Assembly: GCA_041491005.1 (NCBI GenBank)
Contig: JBGPUE010000002.1
Span: 17,218 to 81,217 of the forward strand
DNA length: 64,000 nt
Direction of reading: 5' to 3'
Source: Candidatus Binataceae bacterium
GTDB lineage: Bacteria > Desulfobacterota > Binatia > Binatales > Binataceae
A program made the position numbers and the translations under genes. A model generated the notes under the pieces. It had not been told where the DNA came from, did not search any database, and saw nothing but the letters and a program-made list of their open reading frames with translations. Positions 4,628 through 55,045 of this stretch are shown piece after piece (position 1 is the first letter of the stretch; each line of letters opens with the position of its first letter).

Positions 4628-5228
4628 TCGCTTGAGGCTGCCTCGCGATTTCTATGCGCGGCCAGTCCTGATCGTCGCGCGCGAGTGCATCGGCAAGGTT
4701 CTGGTTCATCGCACGCCCGAGGGTGAGGCGGCGGGGCGGATCGTCGAAGCCGAGGCCTATCGCGGCCCGCTGGATCGCGCCGCGCATAGCTGGCGCGGAT
4801 TGACGAAACGGACCGCAGCGATGTTCGGCCCGCCGGGATACGCCTACATTTACCTGCTCTATGGAACGAGCTGGGCCTTGAATCTGGTCGCCGCATCGGA
4901 AGGCGAGCCGCATGCGGTGTTGATTCGGGCACTGGAGCCGCTGCGCGGACTGGAATTGATGGCGCGGCGTCGAAGCAGGTTTGCCGATTCGCGCGATCTG
5001 ACAAATGGTCCGGGCAAGCTGACTCAAGCCCTCGCGATCACTGGCGCTGACTACGGCCGCGACTTATGCGGGGAGGAACTTTTCCTCGAAGAGCCGGAGC
5101 GTCCGGTCGGGAGGATAGGACGCTCGATGCGCATCAACGTGGAATCCGCCGGCCGCCCGTGGAATGAGAAGCCGTGGCGCTTCTACGAGCGCGCCAATCG
5201 ATACGTGTCGGTCCGCCCCCGCGATTGA
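4617..5228 (+). CDS. mpg: DNA-3-methyladenine glycosylase (Mpg/AAG family)
   Basis: 203 aa. N-terminus LPRDFYARPVLIVARECIGKVLVH and GPPGYAYIYLLYG are typical of Mpg. Its last 102 bp are repeated at 9538..9639. Confidence 0.8.
   Translation: MRSSRLRLPRDFYARPVLIVARECIGKVLVHRTPEGEAAGRIVEAEAYRGPLDRAAHSWRGLTKRTAAMFGPPGYAYIYLLYGTSWALNLVAASEGEPHAVLIRALEPLRGLELMARRRSRFADSRDLTNGPGKLTQALAITGADYGRDLCGEELFLEEPERPVGRIGRSMRINVESAGRPWNEKPWRFYERANRYVSVRPRD
5127..5228 (+). repeat. Direct repeat copy 1 (3' end of mpg), ~88% identical to 9538..9639
   Basis: atgcgcatcaacgtggaatccgccggccg...cgcgattga is found twice, encoding ...RINVESAGRPWNEKPWRFYERANRYVSVRPRD* here and ...RINVESAGRLWNEKPLRFYERANRYVSLHPRD* downstream. 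Confidence 0.9.
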
Positions 5229-5383
5229 TATCTGCCGCTATCCGACAGATATCCGTTGGACCCATGGCAAGTGATATTGAGCCTACGCCTTTTTAGTTCG
5301 CTAGATATAAGCTTTGAAAGGTTGACTTTCTCTTTTAGGCCGATAAGTTGCGTCTACGCTCGCCGATGCGCTGAATCACCTGA

Positions 5384-9457: not shown

Positions 9458-9503
9458 TGTCCGCCGGGATTCGAGCAGCGCTTCGCGTCGATTCCTTCCG
9501 TTC

Positions 9504-9531
9504 TGGTGGGCGGTGCAGGGATCGAACCTGC
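9504..9531 (-). repeat. 28-nt partial copy of the tRNA-Val 3' end (att-like remnant)
   Basis: tggtgggcggtgcagggatcgaacctgc is identical to the 3' 28 nt (including CCA) of the tRNA-Val at 10474..10548, in the same orientation, and diverges immediately afterwards. Confidence 0.8.
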
Positions 9532-9537
9532 AACTAC

Positions 9538-9639
9538 ATGCGTATCAACGTGGAATCCGCCGGCCGTCTGTGGAATGAGAAGCCGTTGCGCTTCTACGAA
9601 CGCGCCAATCGCTATGTCTCGCTCCACCCGCGCGATTGA
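9538..9639 (+). pseudogene. Displaced duplicate of the mpg 3' end (direct repeat copy 2); not an intact gene
   Basis: 102 bp ~88% identical to 5127..5228, encoding the last 33 codons of Mpg plus stop. The upstream frame is fused to an unrelated sequence (ORF 9160..9639 is chimeric). Confidence 0.8.
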
Positions 9640-9672
9640 TCGCCTTCTGAATAACGGCTCGAAGCTTCCCGC

Positions 9673-9692
9673 TGGTGGGAGGTGCAGGGGTC
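9673..9692 (-). repeat. Degenerate second partial copy of the tRNA-Val 3' end
   Basis: tggtgggaggtgcaggggtc matches tggtgggcggtgcagggatc at 18 of 20 positions, in the same orientation. Confidence 0.5.
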
Positions 9693-9733
9693 TAAAATGC
9701 GACCGGCCGAATCCCGGCCATCCAGGCGACCGA

Positions 9734-10416: not shown

Positions 10417-10473
10417 CAGCGAGACGATACCGCATATGGAACCACGGCACTAGCCCCGGAGCGGCTCGGCTCC

Positions 10474-10548
10474 TGGTGGGCGGTGCAGGGATCGAACCTG
10501 CGACCCTCGGTGTGTAAGACCGATGCTCTACCGCTGAGCTAACCGCCC
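10474..10548 (-). tRNA. tRNA-Val (anticodon UAC)
   Basis: The reverse complement is GGGCGGTTAGCTCAGCGGTAGAGCATCGGTCTTACACACCGAGGGTCGCAGGTTCGATCCCTGCACCGCCCACCA. It forms a canonical cloverleaf (7-bp acceptor, D and T arms) with a CTTACAC anticodon loop and an encoded CCA, 75 nt in total. Confidence 0.9.
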
Positions 10549-17566: not shown

Positions 17567-18004
17567 CTATTTCGAGGTAACAGGGGGCGTTTGAACGGCA
17601 GGCGGGGTTTGAACGGCTGGTGGGGTTTGAACGGCTGGTGGGGTTTGAACGGCTGGTGGGGTTTGAGCGGCCTTCGCGGTGTTCACCACGTCTCCAACAA
17701 CCCGGATGCATTGCCGGTTGTACAAAATTGTAAGGAGCATGTCGTTGTAGGCGGTGACATTAGTCATCATGTCGCCATCTGGAACCTGGGCTACGGCTCG
17801 ATCTACCGCATCTTGCAGATTCGGATTTAGCGTTCCTATCGGGATAAAGAGCACCATATTGACGCAGTCCTCTCCTGTTACTCCCTGCTGCAAGGGCGGA
17901 TACGTGTAACCGAGATTCTTGGTGGACGCCATCGTGAAACTACCCAAGCGAAGAGAACAACCTCCGACTACGAGAGTCAAAACCACCAGGCAGAGCTGTT
18001 TCAT
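17567..18004 (-). CDS. Lipoprotein of unknown function carrying a C-terminal (AVQTPP)x5 tandem repeat
   Basis: Lipobox LVVGGC. A conserved core (GEDC...NPNLQDAVDRAVAQVPDGDMM...C.RVVGDVV) is shared with the adjacent paralog. The C-terminal repeats are encoded by 18-bp tandem units. Confidence 0.6.
   Translation of the reverse strand: MKQLCLVVLTLVVGGCSLRLGSFTMASTKNLGYTYPPLQQGVTGEDCVNMVLFIPIGTLNPNLQDAVDRAVAQVPDGDMMTNVTAYNDMLLTILYNRQCIRVVGDVVNTAKAAQTPPAVQTPPAVQTPPAVQTPPAVQTPPVTSK
17589..17675 (-). repeat. Coding tandem repeat of ~5 x 18 bp (ggggtttgaacggctggt)
   Basis: Directly visible as a tandem repeat and in frame within the lipoprotein gene (AVQTPP units). It is not a CRISPR: units are contiguous with no spacers. 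Confidence 0.85.
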
Positions 18005-18390: not shown

Positions 18391-18650
18391 TTTCTGGGAG
18401 CCCCCCCACAGCTTTTGACGGGTTCTCTCTTCGGAGCCCGTTGAGCGGGAGGTACAGGATGGAGCCTCAATTTGCAAGCTTGGGAGCGAAAAAGACAGGC
18501 GCCTCTGGCCGGCGCGCCGCCTTCATCGCGAGTACGATCCCCGCGATGACCGAGTCGTCGACGGCTCTAGCGGGCATCGCGGTCGGGTCTCAACATCCGA
18601 ACGCTCTCCTCTGGCGTGTGCAGGCGGAGCGCTTCGTGCCGGGTTTGGGA

Positions 18651-18783
18651 TGTCATTCTGAGCGGAGCGAAGGCATCGCCGGAGCGAAGTCGAAGAATCT
18701 ACGCGAAGCGATTTTCTGCCTGTCTGCGAACGGGTTCCAGGCAAATCGCTCCGCGTAGATCCTTCGCTGCGCTCAGGATGACA
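18651..18783. mobile_element. MITE/REP-like palindromic element (~133 bp) with imperfect ~40-bp terminal inverted repeats
   Basis: Left arm tgtcattctgagcggagcgaagg...gaagaatctacgcgaagcgatttt. Right arm aaatcgctccgcgtagatccttcgctgcgctcaggatgaca, which is its reverse complement apart from one ~21-bp indel. The same core recurs at 26256..26361 and 53808..53906. Confidence 0.6.
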
Positions 18784-18832
18784 AGAGAGCCGGGTCGCGT
18801 AGAGTTCATCAAGTTAATTGCGGGACGCCACG

Positions 18833-19633
18833 CTAGCGGCCCTTGAAGTTCGGCTTGCGCTTGTCGCGGAATGCGCGCATGCCCTCGCGCACGTCCTCGC
18901 TGGGATTGGTGATCTGCACGTTGAGTGCCGCGTCTTCCAGCGCATCGGCCAGCGTCATGGTGCGCTGCTTGTACATCATCCGCTTGGCGCACCGGATCGC
19001 CAGCGGCGGCCCATCGGCGAGCCGCTGCGCGAAGTCATTGACCCGCGCGTCCAATTCGGCGTGAGCCACGACTTCAGTCACGAGGCCTAACTCGCAGGCC
19101 TGGCGCGCGTCATAGACCTCGGAGAGCAGCGACATCTTGAGCGCCCGATCCATCCCCATCGCGCGCGGGAAGAACCATGCGCCGCCTTCGTCGGGCAGTA
19201 GCGCGAACTTGAGCGAAGTGTCGCCCAGCCGTGCCTGGTCCGATGCGATGCGGAAATCGCAGCACAGTGCCAGCGTCAGGCCGCCTGCCACCGCCGCGCC
19301 GTTGATCGATGCGATCACCGGCTTGTCGAAGCGGTTGAGCGAGAGCACCAGCTGATGGAAGTTCTCGCGCATCTCGAGCAGATGCTCCATCGGATGGCCC
19401 TCGAAGCGCGAGCGGCTCTCCGGATTGCCGCTGATATCGCCGCCGGCGCAGAACGCACGCCCGCTACCGCCGATGATCAACACGCGGATCGCGTCGCTCA
19501 GCCGCGCGTCGTCGATCGCGGCCAGCATCTCATGCACCATCGCGCCGTGATAACCGTTCATCGTGCGCGGGCTATTGAGCGCGATGCGCGCGATCGCGCC
19601 TTGCTTGTCGAACAAGATGTACTTGAAATCCAT
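18833..19633 (-). CDS. Enoyl-CoA hydratase/isomerase (crotonase) family protein
   Basis: Crotonase fold motifs (IALNSPRTMNGY..., FCAGGDISG). Start set at the MDFKYILFD Met. Confidence 0.8.
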   Translation of the reverse strand: MDFKYILFDKQGAIARIALNSPRTMNGYHGAMVHEMLAAIDDARLSDAIRVLIIGGSGRAFCAGGDISGNPESRSRFEGHPMEHLLEMRENFHQLVLSLNRFDKPVIASINGAAVAGGLTLALCCDFRIASDQARLGDTSLKFALLPDEGGAWFFPRAMGMDRALKMSLLSEVYDARQACELGLVTEVVAHAELDARVNDFAQRLADGPPLAIRCAKRMMYKQRTMTLADALEDAALNVQITNPSEDVREGMRAFRDKRKPNFKGR

Positions 19634-25868: not shown

Positions 25869-26222
25869 TTGGCCGCTCGCCGCCATTCTGAGCCCTTCGA
25901 CTCCGTTCACGATAGACTGCGCGAAGAAAGCCCGGCGTGGGACGTGGAATACTACGTATACATAGTGAGCAGCCCGTCGCGCGCGCTATACACAGGCGTC
26001 ACGAACGACATCGTACGCCGAGTCGATGAGCATAGGCGTGGAGAGGGAAGCCGCTTCGCCAAAAGGTACCGGATCACTCGGCTCGTCTATGTTGAAGAGA
26101 CTGATAGCCTTGAGGCGGCGATCGCTCGAGAGAAGCAGCTCAAGGGCTGGGTTCGCACCAGAAAGATTAGGCTGATCGAATCCTTGAACCCAGAGTGGAA
26201 CGACCTCATCGAGCAGAGGTGA
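25869..26222 (+). CDS. GIY-YIG nuclease family protein (small, stand-alone)
   Basis: YYVYIVSSPSRALYTGVTNDIVRRVDEHRRGEG... matches the GIY-(x10)-YTG(V/I)T motif with downstream R and E. A MITE-like repeat sits immediately downstream. Confidence 0.7.
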   Translation: MAARRHSEPFDSVHDRLREESPAWDVEYYVYIVSSPSRALYTGVTNDIVRRVDEHRRGEGSRFAKRYRITRLVYVEETDSLEAAIAREKQLKGWVRTRKIRLIESLNPEWNDLIEQR

Positions 26223-26255: not shown

Positions 26256-26361
26256 CCGGGATTCTTCGCTTCGCTCAGAATGACGACAACCGTAGCGAAG
26301 CCCCGATCTCGCTTCCTGGCCCTCCAATTTTCGTCATTCTGAGCGAAGCGAAGAATCCCGG
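26256..26361. mobile_element. MITE/REP-like element: perfect 31-bp inverted repeats flanking a 44-bp spacer
   Basis: ccgggattcttcgcttcgctcagaatgacga (26256..26286) and tcgtcattctgagcgaagcgaagaatcccgg (26331..26361) are exact reverse complements. Same core as the 18651 element. Confidence 0.7.
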
Positions 26362-53706: not shown

Positions 53707-53807
53707 TGTGGTGCCCGCAAACAACTTGAATATGTCGGTCAAATCGCTTCGCGTAGATCCCTTCGGCAAGAGGAGTCTCAGGGCAGGCTCTTCGACACGG
53801 CTCGCGT

Positions 53808-53906
53808 CGCTCGCCGGCTCAGGATGACGAGAAGAAGGCTTTTTGTGTCATCCCGAGCGAGCCGAGCGTCCAGTGAGGCGACGAGGGATCGACGCGGAGC
53901 GATTCG
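53808..53906. repeat. Degenerate copy of the MITE/REP-like repeat (hairpin gctcaggatgac / gtcatcccgagc plus gacgcggagcgattcg)
   Basis: cgctcgccggctcaggatgac and gtcatcccgagcgagccgagcg form an inverted pair around a T-rich loop. The downstream gatcgacgcggagcgattcg matches the internal part of the 18651 element. Confidence 0.5.
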
Positions 53907-53971
53907 TTCAAGCGTCTTTTTGAAGTCATTTGCGGGACGGGACACTAGCGTCCCGCGATGCGCCGCTCGCG

Positions 53972-55045
53972 CTACATCCGCTCGATAATCTCGCGCGCGA
54001 AGTCTTCGATCGAGTCTCTGAATCCCTCCATCGGCGGATTGAGAAAGACCTGCGTCAGGCCTGCGCGTTCAAGCGCTCGCAGCCGCTCGATGATTTCCTC
54101 GCGCGGACCGACCATGGTCGTCGCACGGATGGTTTCGGGCGTCACGAAGCGGCGCTCGTCCGGCACGACGTATGTGCAATGCCCATCGTGGAGCTCGAGA
54201 TAGCGCTCCTCGGATGGCGTCTTCATCGCGTTCACGTATTCGAGATACGCATCATAGACGGGGCGGATCCCGGCAGGCAGCGTTTCGGCGCGCGCGTAGC
54301 CCGCGGCCATCGCATGGAAGCTCGCCATCACCCAATGTTCGGTCATCGCGGCGACGCGCGCCGAATCGATCTTCTCGCCCGGCCGCAGCACGCATACGTG
54401 CGTCAGCGATACGATCGGGAAGCCCGGCTTGATGTCGCGTCCCGCCTTGGCCGCGCCGATGCGCAGTGAGCCGAGCACGCGATCCATCCGATCGGGCGCG
54501 GCGATGCCGGTGGTCACCAAGCCGTCGCCGAACTCGCCCGCGATCGCGATCGCGTTGGGCGCGTTGCCAGCCACATACATCGGAATCGGACCGTCGAGGT
54601 TGATGAAGCGATAGTCGCGATGCAGGAAACGAATCTTGCGGCGCAAGCCCTCGGTCTCATAGAGGGCTTCGCCTGTGCGCAGCAGCTCGCTGATGACGCG
54701 CACTTCCTCGCGGAACGCGGCGAGCTTGACCGGCGGAAGGCCCATCACACGGCGGCCCGTGTGACCGGTGCCGAAGCCGAGGATTACGCGTCCGGGCGCC
54801 AGCTCGTTGATGGTCGCGATCGAATGTGCGGTGACGGGCGGAATCCGGTTCGATGCGATCGCGACGCCGGTGCCGAGCTTGATGCGCCTGGTGTTGACCG
54901 CAGCCAGCGCCATGCATGCGTAGGTGTCGCCCCAAATCATGTGCGAGTCGGGAATCCAGGCGTGGGTGAAGCCGAGCTGCTCGGCGAGCTTGGTTTCCCC
55001 GACGGCTAGTTGCGGCCGGGTGAAGATCAACGTTCCGAATTCCAT
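53972..55045 (-). CDS. LLM-class flavin (possibly F420)-dependent oxidoreductase
   Basis: Luciferase-like monooxygenase TIM-barrel pattern (MEFGTLIFTRPQ...LGFTHAWIPDSHMIWGD...RVILGFGTGH). Confidence 0.75.
   Translation of the reverse strand: MEFGTLIFTRPQLAVGETKLAEQLGFTHAWIPDSHMIWGDTYACMALAAVNTRRIKLGTGVAIASNRIPPVTAHSIATINELAPGRVILGFGTGHTGRRVMGLPPVKLAAFREEVRVISELLRTGEALYETEGLRRKIRFLHRDYRFINLDGPIPMYVAGNAPNAIAIAGEFGDGLVTTGIAAPDRMDRVLGSLRIGAAKAGRDIKPGFPIVSLTHVCVLRPGEKIDSARVAAMTEHWVMASFHAMAAGYARAETLPAGIRPVYDAYLEYVNAMKTPSEERYLELHDGHCTYVVPDERRFVTPETIRATTMVGPREEIIERLRALERAGLTQVFLNPPMEGFRDSIEDFAREIIERM

What the first reader, a model, noticed from the sequence alone, without database searches (positions are those of the whole stretch)
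18651..18783. Palindromic MITE/REP-like repeat family (core GTCATTCTGAGCGAAGCGAAG) at three intergenic loci
The 133-bp element at 18651..18783 has ~40-bp imperfect terminal inverted repeats. A second copy at 26256..26361 consists of perfect 31-bp inverted repeats (ccgggattcttcgcttcgctcagaatgacga and its reverse complement) around a 44-bp spacer. A degenerate third copy is at 53808..53906. All are intergenic: downstream of the lipoprotein pair, between the GIY-YIG gene and mrp, and after the Omp85-like gene. Three copies in 64 kb implies hundreds per genome. They could act as terminators, mRNA stability elements or recombination substrates, and the perfect copy looks recently mobilised. The second copy overlaps the spurious upstream extension of the mrp ORF.
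Basis: seen in the sequence. Interest (0 to 1): 0.55.

Follow-up and report, generated by a model that had tools for sequence, protein, structure and literature searches.

The report
Hairpin repeats of a GIY-YIG nuclease
The repeats are real, but they are not an orphan MITE family: they are the hairpin target sites of a recently described single-strand-DNA nuclease family (Ssn), and that nuclease gene sits between two of the repeat copies in this window.

Summary
The window carries eight copies of an oriented hairpin unit at four loci. The core is GTC-ATYCT-GAGCGNAGCGA-AGRAT-C.

The stem covaries perfectly: T/A 54, C/G 38, 0 mismatches in loci chosen by protein. In those same loci the GTC before the stem and the C after it are invariant (91-92 of 92).

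It encodes 92 aa (25944-26222) and lies between a unit(+) and a unit(-). In 80 genomes from many phyla, homologues have a unit(+) upstream in 39, a unit(-) downstream in 41 and both in 27. About 1% per side is expected by chance.

This is the SRM-ssn-SRM architecture of Chenal et al. 2025 (PMC11893778). Ssn binds the hairpin only as ssDNA and cuts a few nucleotides 5' of it. GTC is needed for cutting and the trailing C for binding.

No IS200/RAYT transposase, Rfam family, terminator or target-site duplication supports the MITE/REP reading.

Three modest additions: this hairpin type escapes the published SRM search pattern, its loops vary between near-identical strains, and exact copies occur in more than 120 uncultivated viral contigs.

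The parts
18652..18714 (+). SRM-type hairpin unit (GTCATTCTGAG...GAAGAATC) with a 22-nt insertion in its loop, plus the lineage-specific 3' extension TACGCGAAGCGATTT. This is the left arm of element 1.
   Evidence: The 22-nt loop insertion is absent in the near-identical strain L214.
18743..18782 (-). SRM-type hairpin unit (GTCATCCTGAGCGCAGCGAAGGATC plus the extension). This is the right arm of element 1.
25882..25935 (+). Degenerate long-loop unit directly upstream of ssn. Its tag is GCC instead of GTC, and its 3' stem is AGAAA-G in this strain but AGAAT-C in related strains.
25944..26222 (+). ssn-like gene: a 92-aa single-domain GIY-YIG nuclease with a GTG start.
   Evidence: Pfam GIY-YIG, E = 1.9e-14. 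JGI calls the same 92-aa product. It is 55% identical to a homologue flanked by near-canonical Neisseria-type NTS repeats. The nearest solved relatives are UPF0213 proteins 1zg2 and 1ywl.
26256..26289 (-). SRM-type unit immediately downstream of ssn (core 26260-26284). This is the left arm of element 2.
26328..26361 (+). SRM-type unit (core 26333-26357), the right arm of element 2. It has the short loop here, and a loop 24 nt longer in strains L214, L205 and L209.
53741..53828 (-). Long-loop SRM-type unit (GTCATCCTGAGCC...GAAGGGATC plus the extension CTACGCGAAGCGATTT).
53847..53905 (+). SRM-type unit with an enlarged loop (GTCATCCCGAGCG...GAGGGATC plus the extension GACGCGGAGCGATTC).

Best explanation
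The repeats are Ssn-related motifs (SRMs). These are oriented DNA hairpins that serve as recognition sites for a small single-domain GIY-YIG nuclease of the Ssn family. In this window that nuclease is encoded at 25944-26222, in the typical SRM-ssn-SRM arrangement.

Each unit has four parts: a 5' tag (T)GTC, a 5-bp stem ATYCT/AGRAT, the loop GAGCGNAGCGA, and an invariant 3' C. The loop can close further through tandem G.A pairs and a GCGNAGC mini-hairpin.

By analogy with characterised homologues, the protein should act as follows:
- It binds the hairpin only when the DNA is single-stranded, for example incoming transforming or conjugative DNA, replication or recombination intermediates, or phage ssDNA.
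- It cuts that strand a few nucleotides 5' of the GTC.
- It does not cut the complementary strand, dsDNA or RNA.

The expected consequence is local modulation of recombination and horizontal transfer around loci that carry SRMs.

How the units multiply is not known. Strain comparisons here point to recombination or gene conversion between units and to gain or loss of the whole block, rather than to classical transposition.

Shown here: the anatomy, the covariation, the conserved tag and trailing C, the gene-repeat association, the strain polymorphism and one empty site.

Inferred from the literature: ssDNA binding and cleavage, and the biological role.
For: 1. Stem covariation:
- Among exact-pattern matches in viral contigs, Y/R pairs are T-A 88, C-G 55, T-G 1 and C-A 0.
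- In loci chosen by protein rather than by motif, they are T-A 54 and C-G 38 with no mismatch.

2. When only the stem-loop is used as anchor, GTC at -3 to -1 is found in 92/92, 91/92 and 92/92 units, and C at +1 in 92/92. These are the positions that Chenal et al. found critical: the three upstream nucleotides for cleavage and the C after the palindrome for binding.

3. Gene association in 80 GIY-YIG loci from many phyla:
- a unit(+) lies within 150 nt upstream in 39;
- a unit(-) lies within 150 nt downstream in 41;
- both are present in 27;
- about 0.01 per side is expected from the background density.
Many homologues end in '...DPSLRSG*', which is the translated unit(-).

4. The only recurrent protein family flanked by units on both sides is GIY-YIG.

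5. The window protein has the GIY-YIG domain and the invariant Y6, Y16, R26 and E63. It is 55% identical to L179's protein. L179's upstream flank matches the published degenerate SRM pattern and the NTS consensus from its second base; its downstream flank was read by eye and differs by a compensatory T>C/A>G pair.

6. The published biochemistry shows the loop is dispensable and can be extended. This fits the natural short- and long-loop variants at one locus in near-identical strains.

7. A more distant syntenic relative (L229) has only about 46 nt between the NMO stop and the mrp ATG, with no ssn and no unit. The window has 592 nt there.

8. GCGNAGC is a documented, extraordinarily stable DNA mini-hairpin (abstract of PMC13037366).
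Against: - No biochemical test exists for this hairpin type.
- The published degenerate SRM search sequence matches none of the window's units, and only 1 of the 80 loci.
- Chenal et al. found that changing the palindrome sequence while keeping the structure abolished Nm SsnA activity. Recognition of this different stem is therefore an extrapolation.
- Membership of CDD family cd10448 could not be checked. The nearest solved structures are named UPF0213.
- Standard nearest-neighbour folding gives single units only -2.6 to -2.7 kcal/mol, z about -0.1 to -0.2. The hairpin rests on covariation, not on predicted energy.
- The unit upstream of ssn in this window lacks both GTC and the trailing C.
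- More than 120 viral contigs carry exact units, yet none of the 120 stored loci encodes an Ssn homologue.
- The whole genome is not available, so copy number and the absence of a RAYT are unverified.
Confidence: 0.78

Rival explanations
1. SRM-ssn-SRM is itself a minimal selfish, IS-like or homing-type cassette of about 0.4 kb. The gene-less hairpin pairs would be its non-autonomous derivatives, by analogy with RAYT and REPIN. This complements the main explanation rather than excluding it.
For: - The gene sits between inverted units in 27 of 80 loci.
- Paralogues in one genome carry different flanking unit types (L176).
- Flanking units share a 6-nt stem signature in 15 of 27 loci, against 0.25 expected by chance.
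- The whole block is absent between NMO and mrp in the syntenic relative L229.
- Dunin-Horkawicz et al. noted a GIY-YIG domain recently inserted into an HsdR gene (PMC1564403).
- Chenal et al. raise the IS analogy themselves.
Against: - The cassette is at the same locus in all 7 near-identical strains.
- The tandem copies in L176 share homology well beyond the left unit, which fits unequal recombination rather than transposition.
- GIY-YIG enzymes are hydrolytic and have no known strand-transfer chemistry (general knowledge).
- There is no target-site duplication.
- In a minority of loci the arrangement is (-)gene(+) or an array.
Confidence: 0.25
2. The repeats are REP/REPIN-like elements spread by an IS200/IS605-type Y1 transposase (RAYT) encoded elsewhere in the genome.
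For: - Inverted doublets resemble REPINs.
- The hairpin plus conserved 5' tag resembles the GTAG/CGTC-tagged REPs (titles and abstracts).
- The rest of the genome was not available to search.
Against: - No unit-flanked ORF family other than GIY-YIG recurs in 2.3 Mb.
- The tag is (T)GTC, not GTAG or CGTC.
- The GIY-YIG association is about 40-fold above background, and it is the published partner of GTC-tagged hairpins.
Confidence: 0.05
3. The elements act mainly at the RNA level, as transcription terminators, mRNA-stabilising hairpins or a structured non-coding RNA.
For: - The paired elements would form very stable hairpins if transcribed (-44 to -48 kcal/mol as DNA).
- Units are commoner between convergent genes than between divergent ones: 50 vs 20 and 51 vs 23.
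- Element 3 lies between convergent genes.
Against: - No Rfam family matches.
- No terminator-like site lies in or at the elements.
- Between co-directional genes the orientation is near-even: 77 vs 57 in viral loci and 54 vs 55 in bacterial loci.
- The invariant unpaired GTC and C are unexplained by a terminator role.
- Nm SsnA does not bind RNA.
Confidence: 0.07
4. It is a classical MITE derived from a DDE transposon, with terminal inverted repeats and target-site duplications.
For: The size (106-165 bp), the inverted arms and the intergenic location.
Against: - No direct repeat flanks element 1 (…GGGAT|…|AAGAG…) or element 2 (…GAGAT|…|TGTCT…).
- Arms occur alone and in both relative orientations.
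- The same 25-nt unit occurs in contigs of 32-70% G+C with unrelated flanks.
Confidence: 0.03

Closest known systems
Ssn nucleases and their NTS/SRM hairpin repeats (Chenal et al., Nat Commun 2025, PMC11893778)
   Same: - A single-domain GIY-YIG protein of about 92-94 aa, flanked on both sides by inverted copies of an oriented hairpin repeat.
- GTC immediately 5' of the palindrome and C immediately 3' of it.
- Repeats that are intergenic, clustered and multi-copy.
- A loop that tolerates changes and extensions.
   Different: - The stem-loop sequence is ATYCT-GAGCGNAGCGA-AGRAT rather than ATTCCCGCG-MAV-CGCGGGAAT.
- The published degenerate SRM pattern finds none of the window's units.
- No enzyme that recognises this type has been tested.
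- The hosts here are uncultivated soil-type lineages, not Neisseria or Wolbachia.
Neisseria dRS3 repeat (ATTCCC-N8-GGGAAT)
   Same: It is the palindromic core of the NTS. L179's flanks (GTCATTCCCGCGCAGGCGGGAATC) are of this type and flank a protein 55% identical to the window's.
   Different: dRS3 is defined without the oriented GTC and C flanks, and its stem sequence differs from the window's units.
REP / REPIN elements with RAYT (TnpA-REP) transposases
   Same: - Short tagged hairpins, often in inverted doublets and mosaic arrays.
- A single-copy gene flanked by its own repeats.
- Recognition as ssDNA.
   Different: - The partner here is a hydrolytic GIY-YIG nuclease, not an HUH Y1 transposase.
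- The tag is GTC, not GTAG or CGTC.
- No RAYT was found in the sequence held.
IS200/IS605 insertion sequences
   Same: Subterminal hairpins recognised on one strand of ssDNA.
   Different: No TnpA or TnpB is present, the cassette is about 0.4 kb, and no strand-transfer chemistry is expected.
Mini-hairpin DNA d(GCGNAGC) (PMC13037366)
   Same: The unit's loop contains exactly GCGNAGC. N is free: C 57, A 49, G 23, T 15.
   Different: That is a physico-chemical motif, not a genetic element. Its role within the unit is inferred only.

Membership tests
Ssn / SRM system (PMC11893778) | The repeat is a hairpin-forming inverted repeat of 20-50 nt. | tested here: met
   The stem covaries: T-A 88, C-G 55, T-G 1, C-A 0, and T-A 54, C-G 38 with no mismatch in protein-selected loci. 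Predicted energy of single units is weak.
Ssn / SRM system (PMC11893778) | Three conserved nucleotides (GTC) lie immediately upstream of the palindrome. They give orientation and are needed for cleavage. | tested here: met
   G 92/92, T 91/92, C 92/92 when only the stem-loop is used as anchor. Seven of the 8 window units have GTC; the unit at 25882 has GCC.
Ssn / SRM system (PMC11893778) | A conserved C lies immediately after the palindrome and is needed for binding. | tested here: met
   C 92/92 at +1.
Ssn / SRM system (PMC11893778) | Repeats flank the ssn gene on both sides (SRM-ssn-SRM). | tested here: met
   In the window: 25882-25935(+), gene 25944-26222, 26256-26289(-). In 80 genomes: 39 upstream, 41 downstream, 27 both, against about 1% expected per side.
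Ssn / SRM system (PMC11893778) | The protein is a single-domain GIY-YIG of about 94 aa with catalytic Tyr, Tyr and Glu. | tested here: met
   92 aa; Pfam GIY-YIG 1.9e-14 covering residues 3-74; Y6, Y16, R26 and E63 invariant in alignment A2.
Ssn / SRM system (PMC11893778) | The protein belongs to the clade or CDD family cd10448 that contains N. meningitidis SsnA. | not testable with these tools
   Neither CDD nor the Nm SsnA sequence was available. Indirect support: 55% identity (E = 2e-35) to L179's protein, whose upstream flank matches the NTS consensus from its second base. The solved relatives are named UPF0213.
Ssn / SRM system (PMC11893778) | The repeat matches the published degenerate SRM search sequence HGTCWYN(0-2)YYVSBRHN(0-5)WNVSBRGN(0-2)RNCYNB. 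| tested here: not met
   0 matches in the window, and 1 of 80 GIY-YIG loci (L179). This is an operational search pattern built from 29 genomes, not a functional definition.
Ssn / SRM system (PMC11893778) | Strand-specific cleavage of ssDNA a few nucleotides 5' of the motif, with no activity on dsDNA or RNA. | not testable with these tools
   This needs purified protein and oligonucleotides.
Ssn / SRM system (PMC11893778) | Hundreds of copies per genome. | not testable with these tools
   Only 64 kb is available: 8 units, about 0.12 per kb. Canonical-type units number 213 in 1.19 Mb of related bacterial loci, against 0 in reversed controls.
REP / REPIN-RAYT | A Y1 (HUH) transposase gene flanked by the same repeats. 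| tested here: inconclusive
   None appears among unit-flanked ORFs in 2.3 Mb. However, 80 of the loci were chosen through GIY-YIG, and the source genome is not available.
REP / REPIN-RAYT | A GTAG or CGTC tetranucleotide tag at the foot of the hairpin. | tested here: not met
   The tag is (T)GTC followed by AT of the stem.
MITE (DDE-type) | Terminal inverted repeats bounded by a target-site duplication. | tested here: not met
   No direct repeat lies at the borders of elements 1 and 2. Units also occur singly.
Rfam structured RNA / intrinsic terminator | A match to a curated covariance model, or a GC stem followed by a T-run. | tested here: not met
   Only tRNA passes the gathering threshold, and there are only chance-level hits at E up to 10. 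No terminator-like site lies within the elements.

The most novel reading that the evidence does not exclude
The GCGNAGC-loop hairpin studied here may be a separate Ssn target class that has gone largely unnoticed. It is invisible to the published SRM pattern, yet it dominates in Acidobacteriota, Chloroflexota, Gemmatimonadota and Cyanobacteria.

Its exact copies lie in the intergenic regions of true phage structural modules that lack any ssn gene. That would mean one of two things. Host Ssn enzymes may act on phage single-stranded intermediates, as an ssDNA-level restriction or recombination control. Alternatively, units may be planted in trans into foreign DNA, with SRM-ssn-SRM acting as a roughly 0.4-kb minimal mobile cassette.
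Probability: 0.2. Interest if true: 0.6.

Novelty: new member of a known kind. Interest (0 to 1): 0.3.

Why it matters
- The finding turns an anonymous repeat family and a 'hypothetical GIY-YIG' gene into one annotated two-part system with a testable biochemical prediction.
- The published SRM search pattern misses the hairpin type that accompanies these Ssn homologues in many soil and freshwater phyla. Surveys based on that pattern undercount the system.
- Natural short- and long-loop alleles at the same locus offer ready-made substrates for testing the reported loop tolerance.
- A new specificity would add to the ssDNA-cutting toolkit that the Ssn authors propose.
- For annotation, it explains recurrent spurious ORF extensions and peptide tails such as '...DPSLRSG', as well as the extended mrp and ssn ORFs here.

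Tried and rejected
- Rfam at gathering and at E up to 10: only tRNA and chance-level hits.
- Full-text search for the repeat sequence itself: only unrelated primer matches.
- Broad GIY-YIG/repeat, REP/RAYT and COG2827/UPF0213 literature searches gave no link. The decisive paper surfaced only through 'dRS3'.
- Exact look-ups of window proteins found nothing. Relatives were reached through cluster members instead.
- Search for GIY-YIG genes in the 120 viral loci: none.
- NCBIfam, PADLOC and PHROGs for the nuclease: no family.
- Orientation relative to neighbouring genes: no useful bias. The generic detector and greedy gene calls are noisy, with about 40% of units 'inside' ORFs.
- Thermodynamic folding of single units: not distinguishable from shuffles.
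- Terminator and promoter scans: nothing inside the elements.
- Metagenome scan with the NMO protein for empty sites: only distant relatives, of which one (L229) was syntenic and useful. Its intergenic DNA is too diverged to map insertion borders.
- Cultured phages: no convincing copy of the unit and only distant GIY-YIG homologues of 40% identity or less.
- The idea that gene-less pairs are internal-deletion derivatives of the gene cassette found no sequence support in the window.
- The three GIY-YIG copies in L176 looked like transposition at first, but two are a tandem duplication whose homology extends beyond the unit.

Full report
**1. Observation**

- Element 1 (18651-18783) has a 63-nt left arm (18652-18714) and a 40-nt right arm (18743-18782). 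The left arm is the right arm's complement plus an internal insertion.
- Element 2 has arms 26256-26289 and 26328-26361 that are 97% complementary.
- As single strands, the two elements fold at -48.3 and -44.5 kcal/mol, with z = -7.7 and -11.5.
- The third locus is larger than stated. A second shared block, GATCTACGCGRAGCGATTT, ties 53741-53759 and 53887-53905 to element 1. The locus therefore runs 53741-53905.
- A fourth, degenerate copy lies at 25882-25935.
- All copies are intergenic, between ORFs confirmed by Pfam: enoyl-CoA hydratase, nitronate monooxygenase, Mrp/NUBPL-type ATPase, Omp85 and luciferase-like monooxygenase.

**2. The unit**

The repeated entity is not a 100-130-bp element with terminal repeats. 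It is a single oriented unit of about 25 nt: GTC-ATYCT-GAGCGNAGCGA-AGRAT-C.

- Units occur head-to-head (element 1), tail-to-tail (elements 2 and 3) and alone.
- The Y and R positions covary. In viral-contig matches the pairs are T-A 88, C-G 55, T-G 1 and C-A 0.
- In 92 units from loci selected through a protein, anchored on the stem-loop only, the pairs are T-A 54 and C-G 38 with no mismatch.
- In that unbiased set the three bases before the stem are G 92/92, T 91/92 and C 92/92. The base after the stem is C in 92/92.
- The loop contains GCGNAGC with N free. A recent review describes this as an extraordinarily stable DNA mini-hairpin (PMC13037366).
- Standard nearest-neighbour folding does not see the single-unit hairpin: -2.6 to -2.7 kcal/mol, z about 0. 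The structure therefore rests on covariation.
- Some units carry 20-50 extra nucleotides in the loop while keeping the stem, the GTC and the C.

**3. Distribution**

These contigs range from 32 to 70% G+C and have unrelated flanks.
- Some are genuine phage. A tail sheath gene and a head-tail adaptor gene start just downstream of units.
- Cultured phages lack the unit.
- Plasmids of Planktothrix, Calothrix, Oscillatoria, Granulicella and Hymenobacter carry it.
- Rfam has nothing.

**4. The partner gene**

It encodes 92 aa from GTG 25944, as JGI also calls it.

- Its homologues often end in tails such as DPSLRSG*, which is the translated unit(-).
- A scan of species-representative genomes returned 80 loci. 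They come from Acidobacteriota, Chloroflexota, Gemmatimonadota, Cyanobacteria, Planctomycetota, Nitrospirota, Bacteroidota, Proteobacteria and others.
- A structure-based unit detector was applied to these loci. Its false-positive controls gave 13-35 hits against 346 real.
- It finds a unit(+) within 150 nt upstream in 39 loci, a unit(-) downstream in 41 and both in 27. The chance expectation is about 0.01 per side.
- Clustering every ORF flanked by units on both sides gives only one recurrent family, the GIY-YIG protein.
- The flanking hairpin varies by lineage. In a Roseibium chromosome, paralogues carry different unit types.

**5. Identification**

This is the system published by Chenal et al. 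(Nat Commun 2025, PMC11893778).

- Ssn is a family of single-domain GIY-YIG proteins, 94 aa in N. meningitidis.
- They bind a hairpin repeat only as ssDNA. The repeat is NTS in Neisseria (CGTCATTCCCGCGMAVGCGGGAATCYRG) and SRM in general.
- They cut a few nucleotides upstream of it.
- The three nucleotides before the palindrome control cleavage, and the C after it is the most critical base for binding.
- The loop is dispensable and can be extended.
- The gene is typically arranged NTS-ssnA-NTS.

The window reproduces each sequence-level feature. The window protein is 55% identical (E = 2e-35) to the protein of locus L179. L179's upstream flank matches the NTS consensus from its second base. Its downstream flank, read by eye, differs by a compensatory T>C/A>G pair.

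Two caveats apply:
- CDD family membership (cd10448) and direct comparison with Nm SsnA could not be done. The nearest solved structures are labelled UPF0213.
- The published degenerate SRM pattern matches none of the window's units, and only 1 of the 80 loci. Chenal et al. showed that sequence as well as structure matters for Nm SsnA. Activity on this hairpin type is therefore inferred.

**6. Dynamics**

Six contigs from near-identical strains carry the same NMO-ssn-mrp locus. Element 2 is therefore not a recent insertion.

- The unit at 26328-26361 has the short loop in the window and three strains. In three others the loop is 24 nt longer, with adjacent substitutions.
- The unit at 18652-18714 has 22 extra loop nucleotides in the window that strain L214 lacks.
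- Substitutions also cluster at the 3' edge of the upstream unit.

These patterns fit conversion or slippage within hairpins. They also fit the reported loop tolerance.

A more distant syntenic relative (L229) has about 46 nt between NMO and mrp. It has no ssn and no unit, where the window has 592 nt. The whole block has therefore been gained or lost as one piece, and its borders cannot be mapped. Two adjacent gene copies in Roseibium are a tandem duplication whose homology extends beyond the unit, which suggests unequal recombination.

**7. Rivals**

- An IS200/RAYT partner is unsupported, but it cannot be excluded without the whole genome.
- A DDE-type MITE is contradicted by the absence of target-site duplications and by solitary units.
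- An RNA or terminator role has no support from Rfam, from terminator scans or from orientation statistics. Secondary effects of such stable palindromes on transcripts remain possible.
- The idea that SRM-ssn-SRM is itself a minimal mobile cassette remains open. It is compatible with the main explanation.

**8. Verdict**

The kind of system is already known, and this is a new member. Its hairpin type lies outside the published search pattern, its loops vary between strains, and it has an unexplained presence in uncultivated phage contigs.

Interest is modest.

Noticed in passing
IMG/VR loci L001-L120 (e.g. L031 2007-2031, L098 11475-11499): Exact 25-nt units occur in more than 120 uncultivated viral contigs. 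Some lie directly upstream of phage tail sheath and head-tail adaptor genes. None of the 120 stored loci encodes an Ssn homologue, and cultured phages lack the unit.
   Followed up: partly
window 26339-26345 and the corresponding position in L214, L205, L209; window 18662-18683 vs L214: Near-identical strains differ by 24-nt and 22-nt blocks inside the loops of two units at fixed loci. Substitutions cluster next to these blocks, which looks like conversion between unit variants rather than point mutation.
   Followed up: partly
window about 18540-18560 vs L214: Synteny with strain L214 (GCA_041493145.1) breaks about 100 nt to the left of element 1. The lipoprotein pair of the window is replaced there by two unrelated plus-strand ORFs.
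   Followed up: no
window 18811-18861 and 53923-53973: A second shared motif, AAGTNANTTGCGGGACG..CTAGCG (75% over 51 nt), lies just to the right of elements 1 and 3. At 53931-53955 it forms the hairpin GCGGGACG/CGTCCCGC. At 18811-18861 it runs over the stop codon of the minus-strand enoyl-CoA hydratase gene; at 53923-53973 it ends at the stop codon of the minus-strand monooxygenase gene. There are two matches against 0.14 expected.
   Followed up: partly
window 5127-5229 and 9538-9640; 9503-9534, 9672-9703, 10473-10504: A 103-nt direct repeat (89%) copies the 3' end of a methylpurine-DNA glycosylase gene. It brackets 4.3 kb that holds a 1357-aa G8/CEMIP beta-helix ORF. Two partial copies of the 3' part of tRNA-Val (gene at 10474-10548, minus strand) lie beside the second repeat. 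This looks like att-type scars of an integrated element.
   Followed up: partly
window 17583-17672: There are five tandem copies of an 18-nt unit (GGTGGGGTTTGAACGGCT). On the minus strand they encode PPAVQT repeats at the C-terminus of a predicted lipoprotein.
   Followed up: no
whole window: The palindrome GCGATCGC (HIP1-like) occurs 33 times against 14.6 expected from dinucleotide-preserving shuffles.
   Followed up: no
L229 788-1310: In the syntenic relative without ssn, the NMO gene matches only residues 1-65 and 222-313 of the window protein. This suggests an internal deletion or an assembly artefact.
   Followed up: no
L176 9044-10339 and 14314-14952: A Roseibium chromosome carries three ssn-like genes within 6 kb. 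Two are a 694-bp tandem duplication with GTCATCCCCGACTTGATCGGGGATC units. The third is a diverged paralogue with a different long-loop unit type (GTCATTCCGGAC...GATCCGGAATC).
   Followed up: partly
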